A stretch of 63,275 nt of DNA, filler included, from Rhabdomonas costata (GCA_019059605.1; 47 parts of 47 records of this genome joined end to end with filler, not necessarily neighbours in it), one strand, 5' to 3'. Positions 13,066 through 58,829 are shown, counted from the first letter of the whole stretch. Notes: generated from the sequence alone by a model not told the origin. Translations and numbers: made by a program.

Positions 13066-13581
13066 TAAATGGCATCCGGGGCAGCTACTAATAATCCGGC
13101 CCACTCCAGGGCCAGCGTAAAGTACTCCTGGGCTCCACTCTGTGATATGCTAAGCTCCGTCCGAAAACATAGGCTCATATGCAGGCCGGCAAAGGTACAA
13201 AAAGTGCTCATCCAGGCCCTTGGAATGGCCTTAAAAGGGTGCAAAAACCTTCAAGACACCAGCAGGGCTGGGAAGCTGGATGACTCTTGCTTCACCTATG
13301 AAAACCTATCCTACCAAACGGACGATGCTACCAAAACGGAGTTGTAAAAAAAAAAACTCGACAACACAAGAAAAAACCCAACANNNNNNNNNNNNNNNNN
13401 NNNNNNNNNNNNNNNNNNNNNNNNNNNTTAATTAATTAANNNNNNNNNNNNNNNNNNNNNNNNNNNNNNNNNNNNNNNNNNNNTGGTGGTTTGGTGACAG
13501 GGACCGGGTGACCGGGTGTTTGCTTAGGAACAGAGCAGTAGGACAACAAAGTACAAAAAACGAAGAGAGAAGAGGACCGCC

Positions 13582-13608
13582 CGAAAAAATGATTACACTC
13601 AGTAATGT
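13582..13608 (-). other. Spliced-leader-exon-like sequence, copy 1 (ACATTACTGAGTGTAATCATTTTTTCG)
   Basis: Shares the CTGAGTGT core, the TTTTTTCG 3' end and its length with the Euglena gracilis SL exon as recalled. 24/26 identical to the copy at 58804-58829. Confidence 0.75.
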
Positions 13609-14238
13609 CTAAAAAGTTTGAAAAGTTCGTTTTTTATTATGTATTTTTAATTTATCTGGGCCCTTCGTAAAAGTTTGCTCGCCCTATGACCCATCCTACC
13701 CAGTTTCAGAGGTCCCTGCTATCCCCTTGCGTATAAATGGTTGTTAGTTTTGACCGGGGCTCTTCTTCAAAAGTTCCTTTTGTTGGTTGTCGGCAAGCAA
13801 CGGCAAGTATTAGACCTTCAATGTGAAATTCAAGTTCTCATCTTCCAAAGATTTAACCTAATTCTCACCAAGCTCTGTATAAGAACAACGATGGCAGTCA
13901 TCGGTGTGTGACAAGATTCTGGAGCTTCTTCTTCTGGGGCAGTCAAAAACCCGGCGGACGATACCGGACACCCAGTTGCCAGATATAGGGTGCTCGTGAG
14001 GGGAAGTGACCTTGTGCACTTGAAGGCAATACCAATCCATGCAAAAGGGACGTTTGCACCAGATTAAAAAAAGTAATGCTCCGATGCTGACAAAACTCTC
14101 TCAATGCCTTTTTCACAGCTGCGTTTTCCAGCAAGGGAGTCATTCTGATCGAGAACACCAATTCCAGCACAGAGACTTTGTCCGGAGCTTAATGGGGCTC
14201 CATCTCAGTGACGTCAGCCAGCTCACAAACCGTCAATG

Positions 14239-14451
14239 TCACACCACAGCAGCCCCGCCTTCGGGGGGACGATGGCGGCACAGCAGCGCCATGCGGCTTT
14301 CCTGCGACTCGGCCCGTAACTCCTGCAGCACTGCTCTGGCCTTTGGGTTGCACACTCGCTCCAGAGCATCCGCGGAGCTTGCTGCCTCCCACAACACTCG
14401 CTCCAAGTCCACGGCATCCGTTTGTTTGCCGTGCTTCAAGAACGACAGGAC
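14239..14451 (-). CDS. Probable terminal exon, hypothetical protein
   Basis: aag|VLSFLKHGKQTDAVDLERVLWEAASS...AAVV*, with GC-rich, exon-like composition. Confidence 0.45.
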   Translation of the reverse strand, partial: VLSFLKHGKQTDAVDLERVLWEAASSADALERVCNPKARAVLQELRAESQESRMALLCRHRPPEGGAAVV

Positions 14452-15960
14452 CTTTGATAGGATACGTGTGCGCAGACGCATCCACACAGAGCGATGCAGA
14501 GAACAACCACAACACGGACCAGGCGATGTGGCTCATGGTATCGAAGACAAGAAAAGTCCTAACAGCCCTGATCACTCGTTTTACGCTCAGGTGGGCTATA
14601 TTTTGGATTTCGTTCAGGTCACATGAAATTGTATTATAGCGAAAACTAGCAAAGTGTTGCTAGTTTTGGAAATTGGCGTGGTACCCCTCGTAGAATCTCC
14701 AAATAATCTCAAGGCGGACAAGATAGCANNNNNNNNNNNNNNNNNNNNNNNNNNNNNNNNNNNNNNNNNNNNTTAATTAATTAANNNNNNNNNNNNNNNN
14801 NNNNNNNNNNNNNNNNNNNNNNNNNNNNGGGTGGGGTTGAGGACGGAGCTAGACATGTCGCTGTTCTAGCTCTCGGAGTTCGCGTGGTTCGGAGAGAGTG
14901 GTAGGTAAGAAGAACACACAGAAAATGGGGTGAGAAGAGAAAAAAGCAGACAACGGTGGTTGGTGCCCTGGAAGGAAACGAAAAGCGGTGGAAGGGGATT
15001 GTCCAGATTGGGCGATGGAGCGTGATTAATGGATTGATGGAAGCCTAAAGGAGCCAGAAAAAAATAATGTTGCCTGAGTGAGGCGGCTTTTCGGGGGGGG
15101 GGGCAATGAACAGCATGCCTCCTGCTCATCACTTTCAGTATTTATGCATTGAATTATCGGTTCAGAAGACGTACCGCCATCAAAAAAATAAATTATCACC
15201 TGTCATTGATCACACCGAGATCATACCGGGTATAGCTTCTATTCCAGTTCACCCTGCCCACTCACCTCAGTGCATGGGTTTTGTCAGCGGCTCACTTTTG
15301 CATGACTGAAGATTTCAGCGGGCAATCTCAAAAAAAAAAAAAGGATCGAATTCCCCGTTCCCACCGACAAGCCTCAGACACGCAAGGGAAGCCCGCGGGC
15401 CCATGCCGGTCAGGGCATTGGTTGCGTAGCATTCCGCCTCTTTCCCAGCTCAAAGTAACACTAACTCAACAACGGCAAAGCCACACATGCAGAGAGTGTG
15501 TGAGAATGTGAGAGCAGTGGTGCCAATGCTGGGAAGGGTAGGGGTTGGTAGCTTGCGTAGCATTCTGCCTCCCAGGTCAGGTGTAAGAAGGGCAACAGAG
15601 CCACACTCGCACCCACACAGAAAAGAAGAGAGCACTGGTTCGAGCGTAGTGCTAGAGCTGGGAAGTAGCGAGAGAAGCCAACACTTTTGACGTCCCAACA
15701 GAGAGGACAAGAAAGGAAAAAAACGAACCCGAAACAATGCAAAGCTAACGCAGAGAAGGAGACATGGGAATGGGGGGGGAGGCAAGTATCACCTGCAAGA
15801 AAAGAAAACCTCCAGGAAAGGACGCTTACTCAGGTGCGAACTCGCTGCGCAACAGCAGTACCGCAACCCCGGCCAGCAGAAATCGGGAAGCAACAGTACG
15901 TTACCCCGTCGACGTGAAAGGCACCCCTCTGCCCACAGCGGCGAGATTCCTGGGGCCTGC

Positions 15961-37886: not shown

Positions 37887-38524
37887 CGCTGCGCCCGCGG
37901 TGCAGGAAGTCGCGGCTCATCCGGCGCATCAGCCGCAGAGTGCTGTGGGAGGTGTAGTGGAAGTCATCCAAGTGAACCTGCCAGAGGACGGAAGGGGGGG
38001 GCGAGGCCATCATCGCAATTCGAAAAAAAAATCACTCATCATGTCATTGCTGTTGCGGCAGCTGCAATGGGGCCTCCAATGGGGCTTTCCTGTCACTTCA
38101 AGGCGGCTTCGCGGGGGTTCGAATCACCCCTTGGGTTGGTCCTTAAGAAAGGGACGGTGTTCCCGGAGGTCCATGAAATACACATACCCACACTGCAAAG
38201 TCAAGAAGGATGGCGCAGAGGTGGAGCGTGCGGCGTGCTTCAGTGCAAAAGTAGCTTGCAGCTTGGCGAACCTGAGTAAGGGGAGCGATGAAGATGCGGA
38301 ACTTGGCCTCTTCCGGGATTTGGGCGGTGAGCTTGGGGTTCAGGCAGAAGATTCCTGCGAATAGGACAAGAAGTACCTTTTTCCATCCAACCTTGAACCG
38401 CCACGGAGGTAAAAGAAAAATTAAAGCACACACCTTCCATCACGAGCACGCCGTCGGGTTCCAGGGAGATCGTCCGGCCCTTCTTGGCCTTTCCCGTGAC
38501 AAAGTCGAAGGACGGGATGTCAAC
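37887..38524 (-). CDS. Uridine kinase/phosphoribulokinase family nucleoside kinase (exons 38524-38434, 38354-38272 and 37977-37887)
   Basis: VDIPSFDFVTGK...VLVMEG|IFCLNPKLT...FRIFIAPLTQ|VHLDD...LRLMRRMSRDFLHRGRS matches the EG...LN...ALTQ...RR..RD...RG motifs. Confidence 0.85.
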
Positions 38525-43152: not shown

Positions 43153-44208
43153 GGGTTTGGTGGTCCCCCAGGCCGGTAGTGGTGGGTGCTGCGGCGGCCG
43201 CGGCGGCGGCGGCGGAGGCAGCCGCATGGTGTTCATCACCAGTTGCTGCGGAAGATTGGGGGTGGCTGCCCGAAGAAGAGGCGGAGGCCGCGGCGCGGCG
43301 GCTGCCACGGCGGCCCCAGGCGGTGCTCACAGAAGTGACCACCGCGTGTCGGGTGAGCTCCTGCAGGCTCTGCAATGCGAAGCGCGAAAACTGCTGCGTC
43401 AAACTCCAAACAATCGATCCAAACAATCAAAAGAATCATTTGCCAGCACCGTTCTAATCGGGAAAAGCATGCCAAAAAGCTTGAGCTCAGTGTGCAGGCA
43501 TATTAATCCCCTTGTATTGTAGATAAAAAAGACCTTAAATGGCCGAAATGGAGTTCGTATCTAGGCGTAAACCAGCTGAAAAGGCGAGATAGGTTCCCCT
43601 TGACCCCCAAAAACAGAGACAAGAGATTGACCTGCAGAGCAATAAGGTCCAAAAAAAAAGGAAGGAAGAAAAGCCGCGGGGAAAGCGCAACCAAGAACTC
43701 AGGTGCGCAGGTGTTTACGGGAAGACACGGCGTGCATCCTTGCGATTGTCAGGAGAGCGGAGAACAATCCAAAACAGGGCGTCAATGGCAGCAGACTCTC
43801 TCTCTCACATACCACCCAGACGCGCTGTCCGGCCCAGCTGGGTCTTTCCGCAGACTCCTGGACGTACATCCCCGAGGACAGCAGCCCCGGAAGCATTACA
43901 ACCGGGAGCCTGGGCCGGTACCCTGCGCCGCAAGACAAGACACAACGCACGTCTGTCAAGTATGCAAGCCATGTGTGGTGTGTTTGGGATATTCCGATAC
44001 CACAGGACCGGGGGTTGGGGCTTACAGAAACTTTAAAGGCAGAATATCTGTGATTAATGAACAAAGAGAAAAGCCCCGCTCGTCAGCTGTCTTCCTGGGA
44101 AAGATTGGGGTGGGAAGCACCCTTGTGGTAAAACTTTTTCCCCATATTCCCTGCGCTGGCGAAGGAGTCACTGACAATATCGTTCTGGGAAATCCAAGCT
44201 TGATCCAC
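43153..44208 (-). CDS. LCAT/PDAT-family acyltransferase, N-terminal exons (44208-44121, 43922-43813 and 43369 to contig edge)
   Basis: GKKFYHKG|YRPRLPVVMLPGLLSSG...WAGQRVWV|SLQEL matches the PVV.VPG..SSG...R.W motif. Intron phases are consistent. Confidence 0.75.
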
Positions 44209-46643: not shown

Positions 46644-48316
46644 CTGTATGTACACATACATACAGAGAGACCCCAAGAGGGAGGTGGCGCGGTGTTTCAA
46701 AAACCGAAGTGGAAGAATGGTGACAGTGGTAAGTGTTACCAGTGACAACAATTTTGGATCGTCAGAGCAGAACCGATGCTGTCCCAACCGTGGTATTGCC
46801 CGCGTCACCTCAACACTGAGTACTTTCACTCACAGTGCAATAAATTTGCAATTTGCAATTTATTATTACCGAAATTGCGAAAAAATGGTCTGACAACAAC
46901 GCTGCATAACGCCTCAAAGGGGGCCGTTTTCCTTGTACATTTTGGGCTTTGCGTGCGTTCTAGCTTTGATCTTGACGCGAAGCATATGTAGCCGGCAGCG
47001 ATTTCTGAAGTGCTAGCCTCACCCAAACCGAAACCCATTCACCCACGATTGAAAGCAATGCAACTGCTTGCAACCGCAGCCCCCCCCCCCGCGCAGNNNN
47101 NNNNNNNNNNNNNNNNNNNNNNNNNNNNNNNNNNNNNNNNTTAATTAATTAANNNNNNNNNNNNNNNNNNNNNNNNNNNNNNNNNNNNNNNNNNNNGGGG
47201 GGTTGTAGTGAAAGTGAGAGTTTACAGTGGAGTCCAAGGTCTGCGACGGCTCTGTTACAGGGATTCCCCTTGGGATTCCGTCATTCCGGTGTGTTGCAGA
47301 GCAGAGGCTATCTCTGTACCCTTCTCTGCCGAGCTTCCCACCTCGTCGATCGCCGTAGGTCACCGCACCCCTTGAAAAAGGGGGGACCCTGTCTGGTGGG
47401 CTTTCAGCTCACCCTCCTCTGTTGCTTCGGCTTTCTTCTTCATCGATCGGCCGTGTTGGGCTGGCTGGTGGATTTGGGGTTGGTTCGGTTTGTTTCTCAC
47501 TCAGATCGGAAGAAAAGCAAAGTCCCACAGAGCACTTCTCGTTCCTCTTGGGTACCGAGTGTGACTTCCGCCCCGCCCCACACCTTCCCTCCCTGCAAAC
47601 GGCACCCGTGTTCGAAGCCATTTCCCCTCTCACACACGCACCTCTTCCGAACGGTGCGGCGCGGCCAAATCCCGGCCCCTGTCCAATGGAAGAGTGCGTG
47701 AGTGCGTAAGGGGGTATCGGCTGCGCTTCTTGTTGCCCGTAAGTATCCCCCCCCTTCCTCAGGTGTCATTGTGTTCCGGTGGTGGGCTCCTCCAGTGACG
47801 CAGACCTCCCCTCCCTAATCTGGCCTTCCCGTGTATGTGACACGAACGCCAGGGTGTAGTGTTTTGCGTGCTTTTTGTGTTGACAGTAAGAGATAGAGTG
47901 AACCGGTGCCCGTAGGTGCTGAGTTTGTAGTATCGCTTCATTCCCTTCCGCTGTGTTTCCACACCGCACGCAAACCCCTCAAGGAGGTCCTGATCTGAAT
48001 GTGAATCATGGGGACGTTTAGTTGTGCATTCTCGGTGAAAGATCGCAGGCTTTTCTGAGGTCCTATTCCTTGTTAGGGAATGTGTTTTGGGTTTGGTGAC
48101 TGATAGATGGTTGCCCTTGGCCTTCGCCGTATTTGTAATTCGAAGTCGTGGACACGGATCAGTAATGCGAAAAAAAAAAAGTTAGGTAATTGCAGTGCTG
48201 AATGTCATTGCAGCCACGAAATCACATCGGTCCTGCGCATCCTGTGCATTGATCCATTTACCTTTACCAAGTTACCATTTACCTTCACCAAGTTGCACAC
48301 CCTTCTCCATGCGCCC

Positions 48317-56074: not shown

Positions 56075-58803
56075 GTGCCTCTCCCGGTTTTAATTAATTC
56101 TCCCTGTCTGTCTTCAAATTCATTTTCCCCGTAACTTTTTTTAACTTAGGTAAGTGTCACCCGGAAACTCAGAAAATGGTATGTGTATTCGAAGTGTGGT
56201 GTGTGTATTCGAAGTCTTTTCAGCCTATAGAAATGCCGCTGTCTGGGGACATGTTAAGTGATGAACCCGGACAGTTTTCTTGACTGGGAACCTAAAAGGC
56301 AGTTAGATATGGGATGCTGCGAAGAGACTACAAGGCGCGATTTTTCCCGGGTGATTCGTTGAGTGTATTGATCTTTTGAAGAGAATTGTCAATTCTCTAA
56401 CCGGCTGTTTTGTTGAGAAGGTAGGTAAAGATAGGGTATAAAAACAGTCATTCTGATTTTACGGTGTAGCGTACTTTATTTTAACTCTAATCACGCTTTT
56501 TTTAATCACGCTATGTTCTCGGATCATAAAAAAAACANNNNNNNNNNNNNNNNNNNNNNNNNNNNNNNNNNNNNNNNNNNNTTAATTAATTAANNNNNNN
56601 NNNNNNNNNNNNNNNNNNNNNNNNNNNNNNNNNNNNNGTTTGTGTGGAACAGAAAACCCACAGGCATTGCCAAATGGCAGGTGTGATCGTGGAAACAGGA
56701 TCCAGAAGAGATTGGCGGTGAGGGGACCCCGCTGTGCAATAATTCTTCCGACGGTGGGGCTTTCCTGATTTACTCAGTGTCGCTGTTTCGACATCTTGAG
56801 GAGCAGCAGAGGGCGACACAGCGGTTAACGGACAACCTGGTTCAAATCGGTTTTGCCGTTCGACGTGGGATTACCACTGAAAAAAGTTAACAATCACGCC
56901 AATCTGTTCACACTCACATCAGTCGGCCGAGCAGCGGGCAGGCCTCCGCCCTTAAACTGATGATGACGCACAAACACTAGTTTTTAGCCGGTAGAATTCG
57001 TGCCAAAAGCTCTAGCAGCTCAAATAAGACACCCATCCCCTTCTGTCATAATCGGATTGTACCCGGCTCTCCTCCAATCCTTCTCCCAAGCACCAGGTCA
57101 AGTGGGCACGCAGGACTTGGTGCAGTGAACCTACAAACTGATCACTGGAATGGGCCTGGACCTGAACAATTTGGACCAGGCCCTGCCGCTGACCCCAACC
57201 GTGCGTCACTCTACTCCTCATAGATACCGTCCCCATCCTCTCTCTAGTTGATATTTCCCTTCTTCCCAGTCAGTTCAATTTATTTGCGTGTCCTGCGTGT
57301 CCACTTGACCAGTGGGGAGGATTTTTGGCCTTTTCCTGTGAATATCTCCTTTTGGGGGTGGGGGTGGGGGTAATTCAACAGCAGCATAGGGCATGCCCGC
57401 AAAAACGGGTGCCACTGTTTTGGTGGCATGCAGCACTGCCAGTTCTGTGACAGCACTCGACCCCAGCCCCGCTCACGCGCCACCAGCCAAGCCCCAACTT
57501 ACCATGAAAATAGCCCATCACACAGCGCCCGTCCAGCTCAGCCCGCAGCCACTCCAATTCAGCGCACGCCACGCAGCCAGCCGCCACAGCCCGGCTCACA
57601 ATATCTCTATTAGCAAAATCAACGTGTGGTTAGCGGGACCCGAATATCCCCTGAAATTAGAAGGGAAACAGAAAAGCAGGAGCTGGGTGGACATGCTGAC
57701 TGCAACGAAGCAAACGAACTTCAAAACTCACCTTAGAATAACAAACGAAAGCGGGTGAGGGTCACAAAGCCGCGGACCTGAGCCATAACTTTACTCAGCA
57801 TGTCCACGGTGAGGGCCTGCACTTGCGCCTGCGAGGCCGAAGAGGCCGCCATCATCGAGCTCCACGAAAGCTCCACCGTACGCGTNNNNNNNNNNNNNNN
57901 NNNNNNNNNNNNNNNNNNNNNNNNNNNNNTTAATTAATTAANNNNNNNNNNNNNNNNNNNNNNNNNNNNNNNNNNNNNNNNNNNNGTGTTTTTTGTGAAT
58001 CGCTTTGTCATGCAATATTCGCGCTATCTACTGTTAGTCAAGTTCTCGGTTTTCAACCTCAACTCAAACGGTGACGACCCTCTGGGGTGTTGACAGACAT
58101 TTTTTATTGCGGGATACTTAAAAGCATACTTTTCGTTTTTGAATTCTACATAGCCAAAAAGCTGTGAATTGCGTTCAGTTGGATGTGAGAAACTCTGAGA
58201 AACTCTTGTGATTGTGGTGCTTCGACCGATCGGCCTTGACTTCCGCGTGTTTTTCAAATTTGAATCACCTCTTCGAATCCCCCGCTTATTTGTGGAATTC
58301 AACAGTTGTGATCATTTTACGTTGGTTTACGTTGGACTTGCTGTTCAGCCTACCCGGGACCTATGAAGACGTGCTTCCAGTAGACACCGCTTGGCGTGAG
58401 GGAAAGCGTCACCTCGAGGGTGAATTCTCACAAGTATGGGTGCAGCGGTCTTGTGCCATCGGACTGCGTGACATGAGTGTGTTTGGAGCAGTGGAATCCA
58501 CCAGTAGAGGGATGAAGAGGCAAGGTCCCTTTTTTCTCTGACGGTTTTGACGCCTTGTGGCGGTGCAGGCTGCCGGGGGGTTAAAACGCGGGGTTAAAAC
58601 TTTATAGTGAGCAAAGCAGAAAACCGAATTACCTTACTTTCAGTGCGACACTCCTACGTTTTCACCCTGCAGGTTTGGTAACCTGACGCAGCATTGCTAT
58701 TATTCTGCTTTTTTGGGTGGCGTGAAAGTCATAAAAAAAGGAAACCTGGCCCTCAACCACAAGAAAAAGTAAACTACCGCAAAGCGTCAGCAGGGTACCA
58801 AAC

Positions 58804-58829
58804 CGCAAAAATGGTTACACTCAGTAATG
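58804..58829 (-). other. Spliced-leader-exon-like sequence, copy 2 (CATTACTGAGTGTAACCATTTTTGCG), followed by GT
   Basis: 24/26 identical to copy 1, which is on an unrelated contig. Confidence 0.72.

What the first reader, a model, noticed from the sequence alone, without database searches (positions are those of the whole stretch)
13484..13640. Genomic spliced-leader relic: SL-like exon fused to UTR-like sequence with an AG acceptor just upstream
Seen: the minus strand reads ...ttttcaaactttttAG|ACATTACTGAGTGTAATCATTTTTTCG|GGCGGTCCTCTTCTCTCTTCG. The 27-mer recurs at 24/26 identity on an unrelated contig (58804-58829). Known: it shares CTGAGTGT and the TTTTTTCG end with the Euglena gracilis SL exon (ACTTTCTGAGTGTCTATTTTTTTTCG, from memory). 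A true SL RNA gene has GT straight after the exon; this copy does not, and is followed by pyrimidine-rich, 5'UTR-like sequence. Inference: a trans-spliced mRNA was reverse-transcribed and reinserted, and the T-rich AG just upstream could let a new SL be added in front of the relic. This mRNA recycling is described in dinoflagellates; I do not know of it as an established feature of euglenids. Two copies in about 59 kb of arbitrary contigs would imply many genome-wide. Weaker partial matches lie at 46878-46889 (ACCATTTTTTCG) and 38021-38044.
Basis: partly seen in the sequence, partly recalled or inferred. Interest (0 to 1): 0.85.

Follow-up and report, generated by a model that had tools for sequence, protein, structure and literature searches.

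The report
Spliced-leader copy without a splice donor
A euglenid genome contig carries a perfect copy of the short leader that this organism splices onto its mRNAs, but without the splice signal a leader gene needs, so it may be a reverse-transcribed RNA put back into the genome, which one short contig cannot prove.

Summary
Window 13582-13608 (-) is the spliced leader (SL) of Rhabdomonas costata: 26/27 to the published SL and 27/27 to SL exons in four environmental loci. GG, not GT, follows it. TTTTTAG lies directly upstream. Downstream are about 85 unstructured, pyrimidine-rich bases without ATG, and then the contig ends in a whole-genome-amplification primer remnant.

- The second copy (58804-58829) is followed by GT and a T-run at SL-RNA distance. 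It looks derived from an SL RNA gene, so it is not a second relic.
- The two "weaker matches" score no better than shuffled sequence.
- GT after the exon does not by itself prove an SL RNA gene. In environmental contigs the same exon plus GT sits just upstream of an R2-like retrotransposon ORF.

My odds for copy A:
- retrocopy of a trans-spliced RNA: about 0.4
- SL RNA gene broken at the exon-intron boundary: about 0.22
- amplification or assembly chimera: about 0.2

No parent gene, poly(A) tail, target-site duplication or read support could be checked, because no genome or read tool was offered for this window. I found no report of SL relics in euglenids in the library searched. The finding is interesting but unproven.

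The parts
13582..13608 (-). Copy A: complete 27-nt spliced-leader exon (ACATTACTGAGTGTAATCATTTTTTCG)
   Evidence: 26/27 to the published R. costata SL. 27/27 to the SL exon in L001-L003 and L008.
13609..13615 (-). TTTTTAG directly abutting the first SL base: a 3' splice-acceptor-like motif. The G at -1 could also be a cap-derived extra base.
   Evidence: This heptamer precedes 9 of 116,692 positions in the window. Whether it works as an acceptor is inferred, not tested.
13616..13668 (-). A+T-rich upstream flank. The 60 bases 13609-13668 are 73% A+T, in contigs of about 49% G+C.
   Evidence: No similarity to the flank of copy B or to the metagenome loci.
13497..13581 (-). Native sequence after the SL. 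It starts GGCGGTCC (no GT). The full 98 bases 13484-13581 are 68% pyrimidine and hold no ATG. There is no significant fold. The sequence is unique in the window.
   Evidence: (z +0.83).
13484..13496 (.). G/T-only contig end (TGGTGGTTTGGTG on +), probably a remnant of the whole-genome-amplification primer and not native sequence
   Evidence: 50 of 94 contig ends are at least 11/12 G/T. PMC8219788 states that the WGA4 kit was used.
58804..58829 (-). Copy B: variant SL (CATTACTGAGTGTAACCATTTTTGCG). 24/26 to copy A. The position of the first SL base holds T instead of A.
   Evidence: score 42, against a shuffle maximum of 24.
58733..58803 (-). Sequence after copy B: GT donor at 58803-58802 and a T7 run at 58739-58733 (+65 to +71). 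The layout resembles an SL RNA intron, but there is no significant fold and no canonical Sm site.
   Evidence: z +0.70 to +0.93. SW with shuffles against L001, L004, L005, L007, L008, L009 and copy A: none significant; best is L008, 155/1000 shuffles as good.

Best explanation
Copy A is a genome-encoded, full-length copy of the organism's spliced leader that is not part of a working SL RNA gene. Most likely a trans-spliced RNA was reverse-transcribed from its capped 5' end and the cDNA was integrated. That RNA could be a cellular mRNA or a retroelement transcript. On this reading the genome now reads [unrelated flank][G][27-nt SL][5' part of that RNA].

Shown:
- the 27-mer is the species' SL
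- there is no GT donor
- there is no SL-RNA-like structure downstream
- similarity to true SL RNA genes starts at SL base 1 and stops at the exon end

Inferred:
- the RNA origin
- that the G at -1 comes from the cap
- that TTTTTAG upstream could accept a new SL, giving an mRNA with SL plus relic
For: 1. Identity. Copy A matches the published R. costata SL 26/27 and the exon in L001-L003 and L008 27/27.
2. Similarity to those loci is limited to the exon plus one G. The flanks show no significant match.
3. No GT follows. E. gracilis SL RNAs are stated to use canonical GT (PMC10679874, passage). Of the 9 complete environmental SL occurrences, 7 are followed by GT.
4. The downstream RNA fold is no better than shuffles (z +0.83). 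The canonical L001-type SL RNA gives z -3.17, with an unpaired AAUUUUUGA.
5. The same exon occurs without GT in front of open reading frames elsewhere. L009 has the SL mid-contig, then 31 nt, then an ATG and a 203-aa ORF. L007 has the SL, then 228 nt, then an ORF of at least 554 aa.
6. Reverse transcriptase is at hand in organisms with this SL. L008 carries an RVT_1 ORF (E 7.7e-17).
7. All 4 mid-contig copies that lack a canonical SL RNA gene context (copy A, L004, L005, L009) are preceded by G. L001-L003, L008 and copy B are preceded by T or C.
8. Plain cDNA contamination is unlikely, because the transcriptome never held more than 17 SL bases. No primer-like G/T or C/A run of 16 bases or more lies inside contig A.
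Against: - This is one locus, with only about 85 native bases after the SL and no ATG in them.
- No CDS, poly(A) tail, target-site duplication or parent gene can be seen. No copy of the downstream sequence exists elsewhere in the window.
- Copy A keeps SL bases 1 and 2. The other four non-canonical environmental copies start at base 2 or 3, so its 5' side may be gene-derived rather than RNA-derived.
- A T-rich stretch right before the SL is also seen at L001, L008 and copy B, so it may be a feature of SL RNA genes.
- Retrocopy insertion does not by itself explain the TTTTTAG adjacency (9/116,692 positions).
- The DNA was PCR-amplified from few cells and assembled at 10-20x.
- I could not see the R. 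costata SL RNA gene sequence of Frantz et al. 2000 (not held). I therefore could not compare its intron with the sequence downstream of copy A.
- The supplementary tables of PMC8219788 were not consulted.
Confidence: 0.4

Rival explanations
1. Copy A is a resident SL RNA gene (promoter side and exon intact) whose intron was cut off exactly at the exon-intron boundary. The cause would be an inserted mobile element or a deletion. Site-specific non-LTR retrotransposons with a restriction-like endonuclease target SL RNA genes in trypanosomatids. A relative could do so in euglenids.
For: - The exon is complete from base 1 and perfect.
- A T-rich stretch just upstream is shared with L001 (TGCTT), L008 (TTTTC) and copy B (TTGTTT).
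- The upstream 60 nt are 73% A+T, which could be a promoter.
- The CRE clade (SLACS, CZAR, CRE1/2) inserts at a fixed position in SL RNA genes (PMC12278014, passage).
- L008 shows the same SL next to an ORF with RVT_1 and no Pfam endonuclease hit. Its best PDB match is R2 protein (E 7.7e-4). A CCHC motif plus P..D...D motif is invariant in 5 of 5 aligned relatives.
- Copy A's downstream shares GGTCCTCTTCT..CGTTTT with the region after the SL unit in L005 (score 29; 2 of 1000 shuffles as good).
Against: - A break exactly at the splice junction (within 1 nt) is improbable unless an element targets that site, and no such element is known.
- No RT or L007/L008-like coding sequence is present anywhere in the window (tblastn, 0 hits).
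- The match to L005 is within the range of CT-rich background. Two unrelated window tiles of 2256 score higher, at 30 and 34.
- No upstream similarity exists between copy A and copy B or L001.
- AG at -2/-1 differs from the TT or TC seen at L001 and L008.
- No 5S rRNA or second SL unit lies on the contig.
Confidence: 0.22
2. The junctions are artefacts of sample preparation or assembly. A polymerase copied an abundant SL-bearing RNA or cDNA during PCR-based whole-genome amplification, jumped templates at the RNA's 5' end onto unrelated DNA, and the chimeric amplicon was assembled as a contig.
For: - The DNA came from 69 to about 2000 cells, was amplified with the WGA4 kit and assembled at 10-20x.
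- Contigs behave like single amplicons. 50 of 94 ends carry G/T-only primer remnants, and primer-like runs also occur inside contigs, for example 43972-43988 and 48081-98.
- A break exactly at the first SL base, with an extra G, is what an end-of-template jump would give.
- Metagenome locus L005 shows that such SL junctions can be chimeric. Its upstream genes are bacterial: NAD-dependent DNA ligase and RACo.
Against: - It needs reverse-transcriptase activity or cDNA in a DNA preparation.
- The authors' cDNA never held more than 17 SL bases, whereas copy A has all 27.
- No primer-like G/T or C/A run of 16 bases or more lies inside contig A.
- It does not explain the TTTTTAG adjacency.
- The chimera must have been common enough to assemble.
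Confidence: 0.2
3. Copy A is an active but unusual SL RNA-type gene. It would either use the GT five bases further on (GGGCG|GT), giving a longer leader, or make a non-splicing small RNA that starts with the SL sequence.
For: - A GT lies at +6/+7, and MAFFT aligned GCGGT in both window copies.
- CGTTTTTTGT at +20 to +29 loosely resembles the CGTTTTGT and CGTTTTAT that follow the SL units of L004 and L005.
Against: - Published and transcriptome leaders end in ...CATTTTTTCG.
- There is no canonical Sm site and no stem-loops.
- The T-run lies only about 22 nt after the exon, against +53 to +83 in the environmental units.
Confidence: 0.05

Closest known systems
Relic spliced leaders of dinoflagellate retrogenes (mRNA recycling; PMC5585692, PMC6050394, PMC12014239, abstracts seen; original description recalled, not read)
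   Same: An SL sequence is encoded in genomic DNA, directly joined to non-intron sequence and without a splice donor. It is read as the mark of a reverse-transcribed trans-spliced mRNA. A fresh SL can be added upstream.
   Different: - The phylum and the SL differ.
- Here there is one locus, with no visible CDS, poly(A) tail or parent gene.
- The relic is full-length with an AG just outside it. As I recall, dinoflagellate relics are usually truncated at an AG inside the leader.
- No mRNA with tandem leaders has been shown.
Euglenid SL RNA genes (E. gracilis: about 0.6-kb SL RNA-5S rRNA repeats plus dispersed copies, PMC2784804 passage; GT donor, PMC10679874 passage)
   Same: Copy A has the exact leader exon. 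Copy B and environmental L001-L003 have exon plus GT plus a T-rich end about 70-100 nt on.
   Different: Copy A has no GT, no Sm site, no stem-loops and no linked 5S rRNA gene.
CRE-clade retrotransposons (SLACS, CZAR, CRE1/2) of trypanosomatids (PMC12278014 passage) and nematode NeSL-1 (recalled)
   Same: In both, an SL gene sequence abuts foreign DNA at a sharp boundary. L008 shows an RT ORF with CCHC and restriction-like endonuclease motifs next to this very SL.
   Different: - CRE elements cut inside the exon at a fixed position (as I recall, between bases 11 and 12). Here the whole exon is kept.
- No RT sequence is present in the window.
- In L008 a complete SL-RNA-like unit precedes the ORF, so the relation there (target, promoter or chimera) is itself open.

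Membership tests
Functional euglenid SL RNA gene | Exon identical to the leader found on mRNAs | tested here: met
   Copy A: 26/27 to the published R. costata SL and 27/27 to the exons in L001-L003 and L008. Copy B: 24/26 to copy A.
Functional euglenid SL RNA gene | GT splice donor directly after the exon | tested here: not met
   Copy A is followed by GG. Copy B does meet this feature (GT at 58803-58802).
Functional euglenid SL RNA gene | Intron of about 70-75 nt with stem-loops and a single-stranded Sm-binding site | tested here: not met
   Copy A z +0.83 and copy B z +0.70 to +0.93, with no AAUUUUUG-type site. L001 gives z -3.17 with AAUUUUUGA between hairpins.
Functional euglenid SL RNA gene | Tandem repetition, or linkage to a 5S rRNA gene | tested here: not met
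   No Rfam family reached its gathering score in the window. Nothing relevant appeared at E up to 10 on either contig. The contigs are only 1.2 kb, so a wider array cannot be excluded.
Relic-SL retrogene (dinoflagellate type) | Genomic SL joined directly to mRNA-like sequence with no donor site | tested here: inconclusive
   The junction without GT is shown. That the 85 nt are mRNA-derived is not shown: they have no ATG and no match to anything.
Relic-SL retrogene (dinoflagellate type) | Intronless CDS, poly(A) remnant, target-site duplication, and an intron-bearing parent locus | not testable with these tools
   The contig ends 98 nt after the SL. No whole genome is held and no read tool was offered.
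Relic-SL retrogene (dinoflagellate type) | Transcripts carrying a new SL followed by the relic | not testable with these tools
   No RNA data could be reached. Only the acceptor-like TTTTTAG is seen.
SL-gene-specific non-LTR retrotransposon insertion (CRE/NeSL type) | RT plus restriction-like endonuclease ORF adjoining the interrupted SL gene | tested here: not met
   tblastn of the L008, L007, L004, L005 and L009 ORFs against the window gave 0 hits. The Pfam scan of six contig A ORFs was empty. The contig may simply be too short.
SL-gene-specific non-LTR retrotransposon insertion (CRE/NeSL type) | Same insertion position in many SL gene copies, with target-site duplication | not testable with these tools
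   Only one non-GT copy is in the window. L007 has a boundary at the same exon end, but it starts at a contig end.

The most novel reading that the evidence does not exclude
The SL was knocked in precisely at a gene's own trans-splice acceptor. A reverse transcriptase copied the mature SL-mRNA to its 5' end. It then jumped end-to-end onto the 3' end of the just-released outron, which terminates in ...TTTTTAG. The resulting cDNA (outron-SL-exon) had homology on both sides and converted the native locus.

This would explain in one step the complete SL, the missing donor and the otherwise very improbable abutting TTTTTAG. It would also mean that euglenids recycle processed mRNAs into their genomes as dinoflagellates do, leaving leaders that can be re-spliced.
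Probability: 0.08. Interest if true: 0.85.

Novelty: new member of a known kind. Interest (0 to 1): 0.45.

Why it matters
If copy A is a true retrocopy, it would be direct sequence evidence that trans-spliced RNAs are written back into a euglenid genome. SL tags could then be used to count and date retroposed genes in Euglenozoa, as is done in dinoflagellates. That would bear on how these large, repeat-rich, intron-rich genomes grow.

My searches of the held library found no such report for euglenids.

The check also has practical value:
- It shows that "GT follows or not" is an unsafe classifier on its own.
- It shows that this amplified assembly carries primer remnants and likely chimeras.
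- The genome and eight environmental loci support A, not G, at SL position 10.

Tried and rejected
- Rfam: nothing at gathering score in the window or in eight loci. On the two contigs there were only chance-level hits at E 2.5 and 7.9.
Earlier-findings look-ups were empty or irrelevant.
- Idea: contig A holds a duplicated segment split by a 92-nt SL-bearing insertion (repeats D1 and D2). Rejected, because 59 of 500 shuffles score as well.
- Idea: copy A's downstream is homologous to the L005 unit. It is nominally 2/1000, but two unrelated CT-rich window tiles score higher, so I treat it as weak.
- Idea: copy B's downstream is homologous to L008 through a shared GAGGGCCAG. Not significant, 155/1000.
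- Copy B's 26-nt inverted repeat (58672-58697 and 58779-58804, 77% complementary) is no better than five other pairs on the same contig.
- Protein searches for context: the contig A ORFs, L009 ORFs, L007 ORF and L004/L005 ORFs have no Pfam family. The window ORF 14239-14532 and L009 ORF-B have no homologues.
- The viral and prokaryotic genome collections hold no exact SL match.
- Frantz et al. 2000 and Keller et al. 1992 are not held, so the true R. costata SL RNA intron was not compared.

Full report
**What the window is.** The window is 47 contigs of 1240-1253 bp joined by N/TTAATTAATTAA spacers. Of the 94 contig ends, 50 are at least 11/12 G/T when read inward. That fits the R. costata draft genome described in PMC8219788 (passages read):
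- DNA from 69 to about 2000 sorted cells was amplified with the PCR-based WGA4 kit.
- It was assembled with SPAdes 3.7.0, giving N50 1194 bp at 10-20x coverage.

Everything below therefore rests on the window, nine metagenome loci and the literature.

**The observation.**
- On the minus strand, 13582-13608 reads ACATTACTGAGTGTAATCATTTTTTCG. TTTTTAG precedes it and GGCGGTCCTCTTC... follows.
- A 3-mismatch search finds exactly two copies, this one and 58804-58829 (24/26), against 0.00 expected in 100 shuffles.
- A gapped local-alignment scan gives 54 and 42 for these two, and at most 24 for anything else. Ten shuffled windows peak at 19-24.
- The flanks of the two copies are unrelated to each other.

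**Is it the species' leader?** Yes.
- PMC8219788 quotes the R. costata SL from Frantz et al. 2000 as ACATTACTGGGTGTAATCATTTTTTCG. Copy A differs at one base, position 10.
- One scan of the metagenome collection with a degenerate 21-mer returned nine loci. Eight carry the same leader with A at position 10. The ninth, L006, lacks the 3' end and is probably a chance hit.
- The leader also resembles the Eutreptiella SL given in the abstract of PMC3621762.

**What true SL RNA genes with this exon look like.**
- L001-L003 (four copies) read exon|GTATAAACTCC... They fold into three hairpins with an unpaired AAUUUUUGA (z -3.17; 1 of 200 shuffles as stable).
- Of the nine environmental occurrences with a complete 3' end, seven are followed by GT (L001, L002, L003 twice, L004, L005, L008). 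Two are not (L007, L009).
- E. gracilis SL RNAs are stated to use canonical GT (PMC10679874, passage).
- Copy A fails this test, and its downstream RNA is no more stable than shuffles (z +0.83).
- Copy B passes the GT test. Copy B also has a T7 run at +65 to +71, about where the environmental units turn T-rich.
- However, copy B has no significant fold (z +0.70 to +0.93) and no significant similarity to the environmental introns.
- I read copy B as derived from an SL RNA gene (a variant, pseudogene or retropseudogene), not as a second relic. The "two in 59 kb" extrapolation therefore falls to one.

**GT alone is not a safe classifier.**
- In L004, L005 and L008 the exon is followed by GTGAACCCTCC... 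and, 110-200 nt later, by open reading frames.
- The 1242-codon frame in L008 has an RVT_1 domain (E 7.7e-17) and no Pfam endonuclease hit.
- Its best solved relatives are R2 retrotransposon proteins (E 7.7e-4).
- In an alignment with four of its six database relatives, a C-x2-C...H-x3-C motif and a P-x-D...D motif after the RT are invariant in 5 of 5 sequences.
- That is the layout of the restriction-like-endonuclease LINEs. Among them, the CRE clade inserts into trypanosomatid SL RNA genes (PMC12278014, passage). NeSL in nematodes is recalled, not read.
- L005's upstream genes are bacterial (NAD-dependent ligase, RACo), so its join at the SL is probably a metagenome assembly chimera. That is a warning for all such junctions.

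**Non-GT copies elsewhere.**
- L009 has the SL from base 2 in mid-contig, then 31 nt, then an ATG and a 203-codon frame. The contig's first and last 32 nt repeat with one mismatch, which gives a 1866-nt unit.
- L007 has the SL at the contig end, then 228 nt, then a frame of at least 554 codons with C2H2-like motifs.
- Neither has Pfam hits. L009 ORF-B has no database relatives; L007's ORF was not searched for relatives.
- I cannot tell whether these records are DNA or RNA.
- They show that this leader is found fused to ORF-bearing sequence in relatives, which fits RNA-derived copies. They are not independent proof.

**Explanations for copy A.**

(a) Retrocopy of a trans-spliced RNA. Evidence for:
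- similarity to SL RNA genes is confined to the exon
- the donor is missing
- the downstream sequence is unstructured
- RT is present in relatives
- a G at -1 is shared by all 4 non-canonical mid-contig copies (copy A, L004, L005, L009) but by none of L001-L003, L008 and copy B. As I recall, an extra G is typical of cap-templated cDNA ends.
- plain cDNA contamination is unlikely, because the transcriptome never held more than 17 SL bases

Evidence against:
- about 85 native bases, no ATG, nothing else to test
- the leader is complete from base 1, unlike the other four non-canonical copies
- TTTTTAG directly upstream is very improbable by chance (9 of 116,692 positions) and is not predicted by random insertion

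(S) An SL RNA gene broken at the exon end. This explains the full exon and the T-rich, A+T-rich upstream. It needs a break within 1 nt of the splice junction. No transposon sequence is in the window. The CT-rich match to L005 (2/1000 shuffles) is beaten by two unrelated tiles of 2256.

(c) An amplification or assembly chimera. This is plausible given the primer remnants and the primer-like internal runs. It needs RNA-templated synthesis, and no primer-like run of 16 bases or more lies inside contig A.

I put (a) at about 0.4, (S) at 0.22, (c) at 0.2 and an unusual active gene at 0.05. The rest is unassigned.

**A bolder reading.** One bolder reading would explain the abutting acceptor. A reverse transcriptase jumps end-to-end from the mRNA's 5' end to the 3' end of the released outron. 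Gene conversion of the native locus follows, which would place the SL exactly at the gene's own acceptor. I give it about 0.08.

**Comparison and novelty.**
- Relic leaders marking retrogenes are established in dinoflagellates (abstracts of PMC5585692, PMC6050394 and PMC12014239 in the listings).
- Three full-text searches combining euglenid terms with relic, retroposition, retrogene, processed pseudogene or retrotransposon terms found no such report for euglenids.
- The kinetoplastid intron paper discusses RT-mediated intron loss without SL relics (PMC11613528, section 10 read).
- The library lacks most subscription journals, and supplements were closed.
- If real, this is a new member of a known kind of feature in a new phylum. 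As it stands, it is one unverified junction in an amplified, fragmentary assembly.

Noticed in passing
window, contig ends (e.g. 4050, 10795, 24271, 48550, 49797, 62028); internal runs at 43972-43988 and 48081-48098: 50 of 94 contig ends are at least 11/12 G/T read inward. Many resemble one another (GTGTTGGGTGTG.TTGG...), so they are probably untrimmed whole-genome-amplification primers. Similar runs inside contigs may mark chimeric joins of amplicons.
   Followed up: partly
window 13599 (SL position 10); L001-L005 and L007-L009: The genome copy and eight environmental loci have A at SL position 10 (CTGAGTG). The published R. costata SL quoted in PMC8219788 has G (CTGGGTG). This is either a strain difference or an error in the printed sequence. 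The transcriptome there covered only the last 17 bases.
   Followed up: partly
L008:6-3942: The same SL plus a GTGAACCCTCC... unit of about 100 nt lies directly upstream of a 1242-codon ORF. The ORF has an RVT_1 domain, conserved CCHC and restriction-like endonuclease motifs, and no AP-endonuclease domain. This is an R2/CRE-like retrotransposon associated with an SL unit in an organism using this leader. Only 6 relatives exist in the 5.8-billion-protein collection.
   Followed up: partly
L009:1-1898: A 1866-nt unit, with its first and last 32 nt repeated with one mismatch. A single reading frame is open all round except for two stops inside the embedded SL and one after a 203-codon ORF. It has no Pfam family, and ORF-B (the only ORF searched) has no homologue. 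It could be a tandem gene array, a small replicon or an assembly artefact.
   Followed up: partly
L005:3601-13105: The genes upstream of the SL are bacterial (acetyl-CoA hydrolase, RACo, NAD-dependent DNA ligase). The contig is probably a metagenome assembly chimera joined at the SL's 5' edge.
   Followed up: partly
L007:1840-1891 (minus strand): The SL is followed 23 nt later by a perfect 11-nt inverted copy of its own core (GAGTGTAATCA / TGATTACACTC). This gives a hairpin at the 5' end of the ORF-bearing sequence.
   Followed up: no
L004:819-927: A second, internally deleted SL (ATTACTGAGTG-TTTTCG, again followed by GT) begins 66 nt after the end of the first SL exon, ahead of an ORF that begins ATGTCCGT, as does a short ORF in L008.
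   Followed up: no
window 58672-58804: A 26-nt imperfect inverted repeat (77% complementary) brackets the 133 nt that start at the last base of copy B's SL. It is not better than other chance pairs on the contig.
   Followed up: partly
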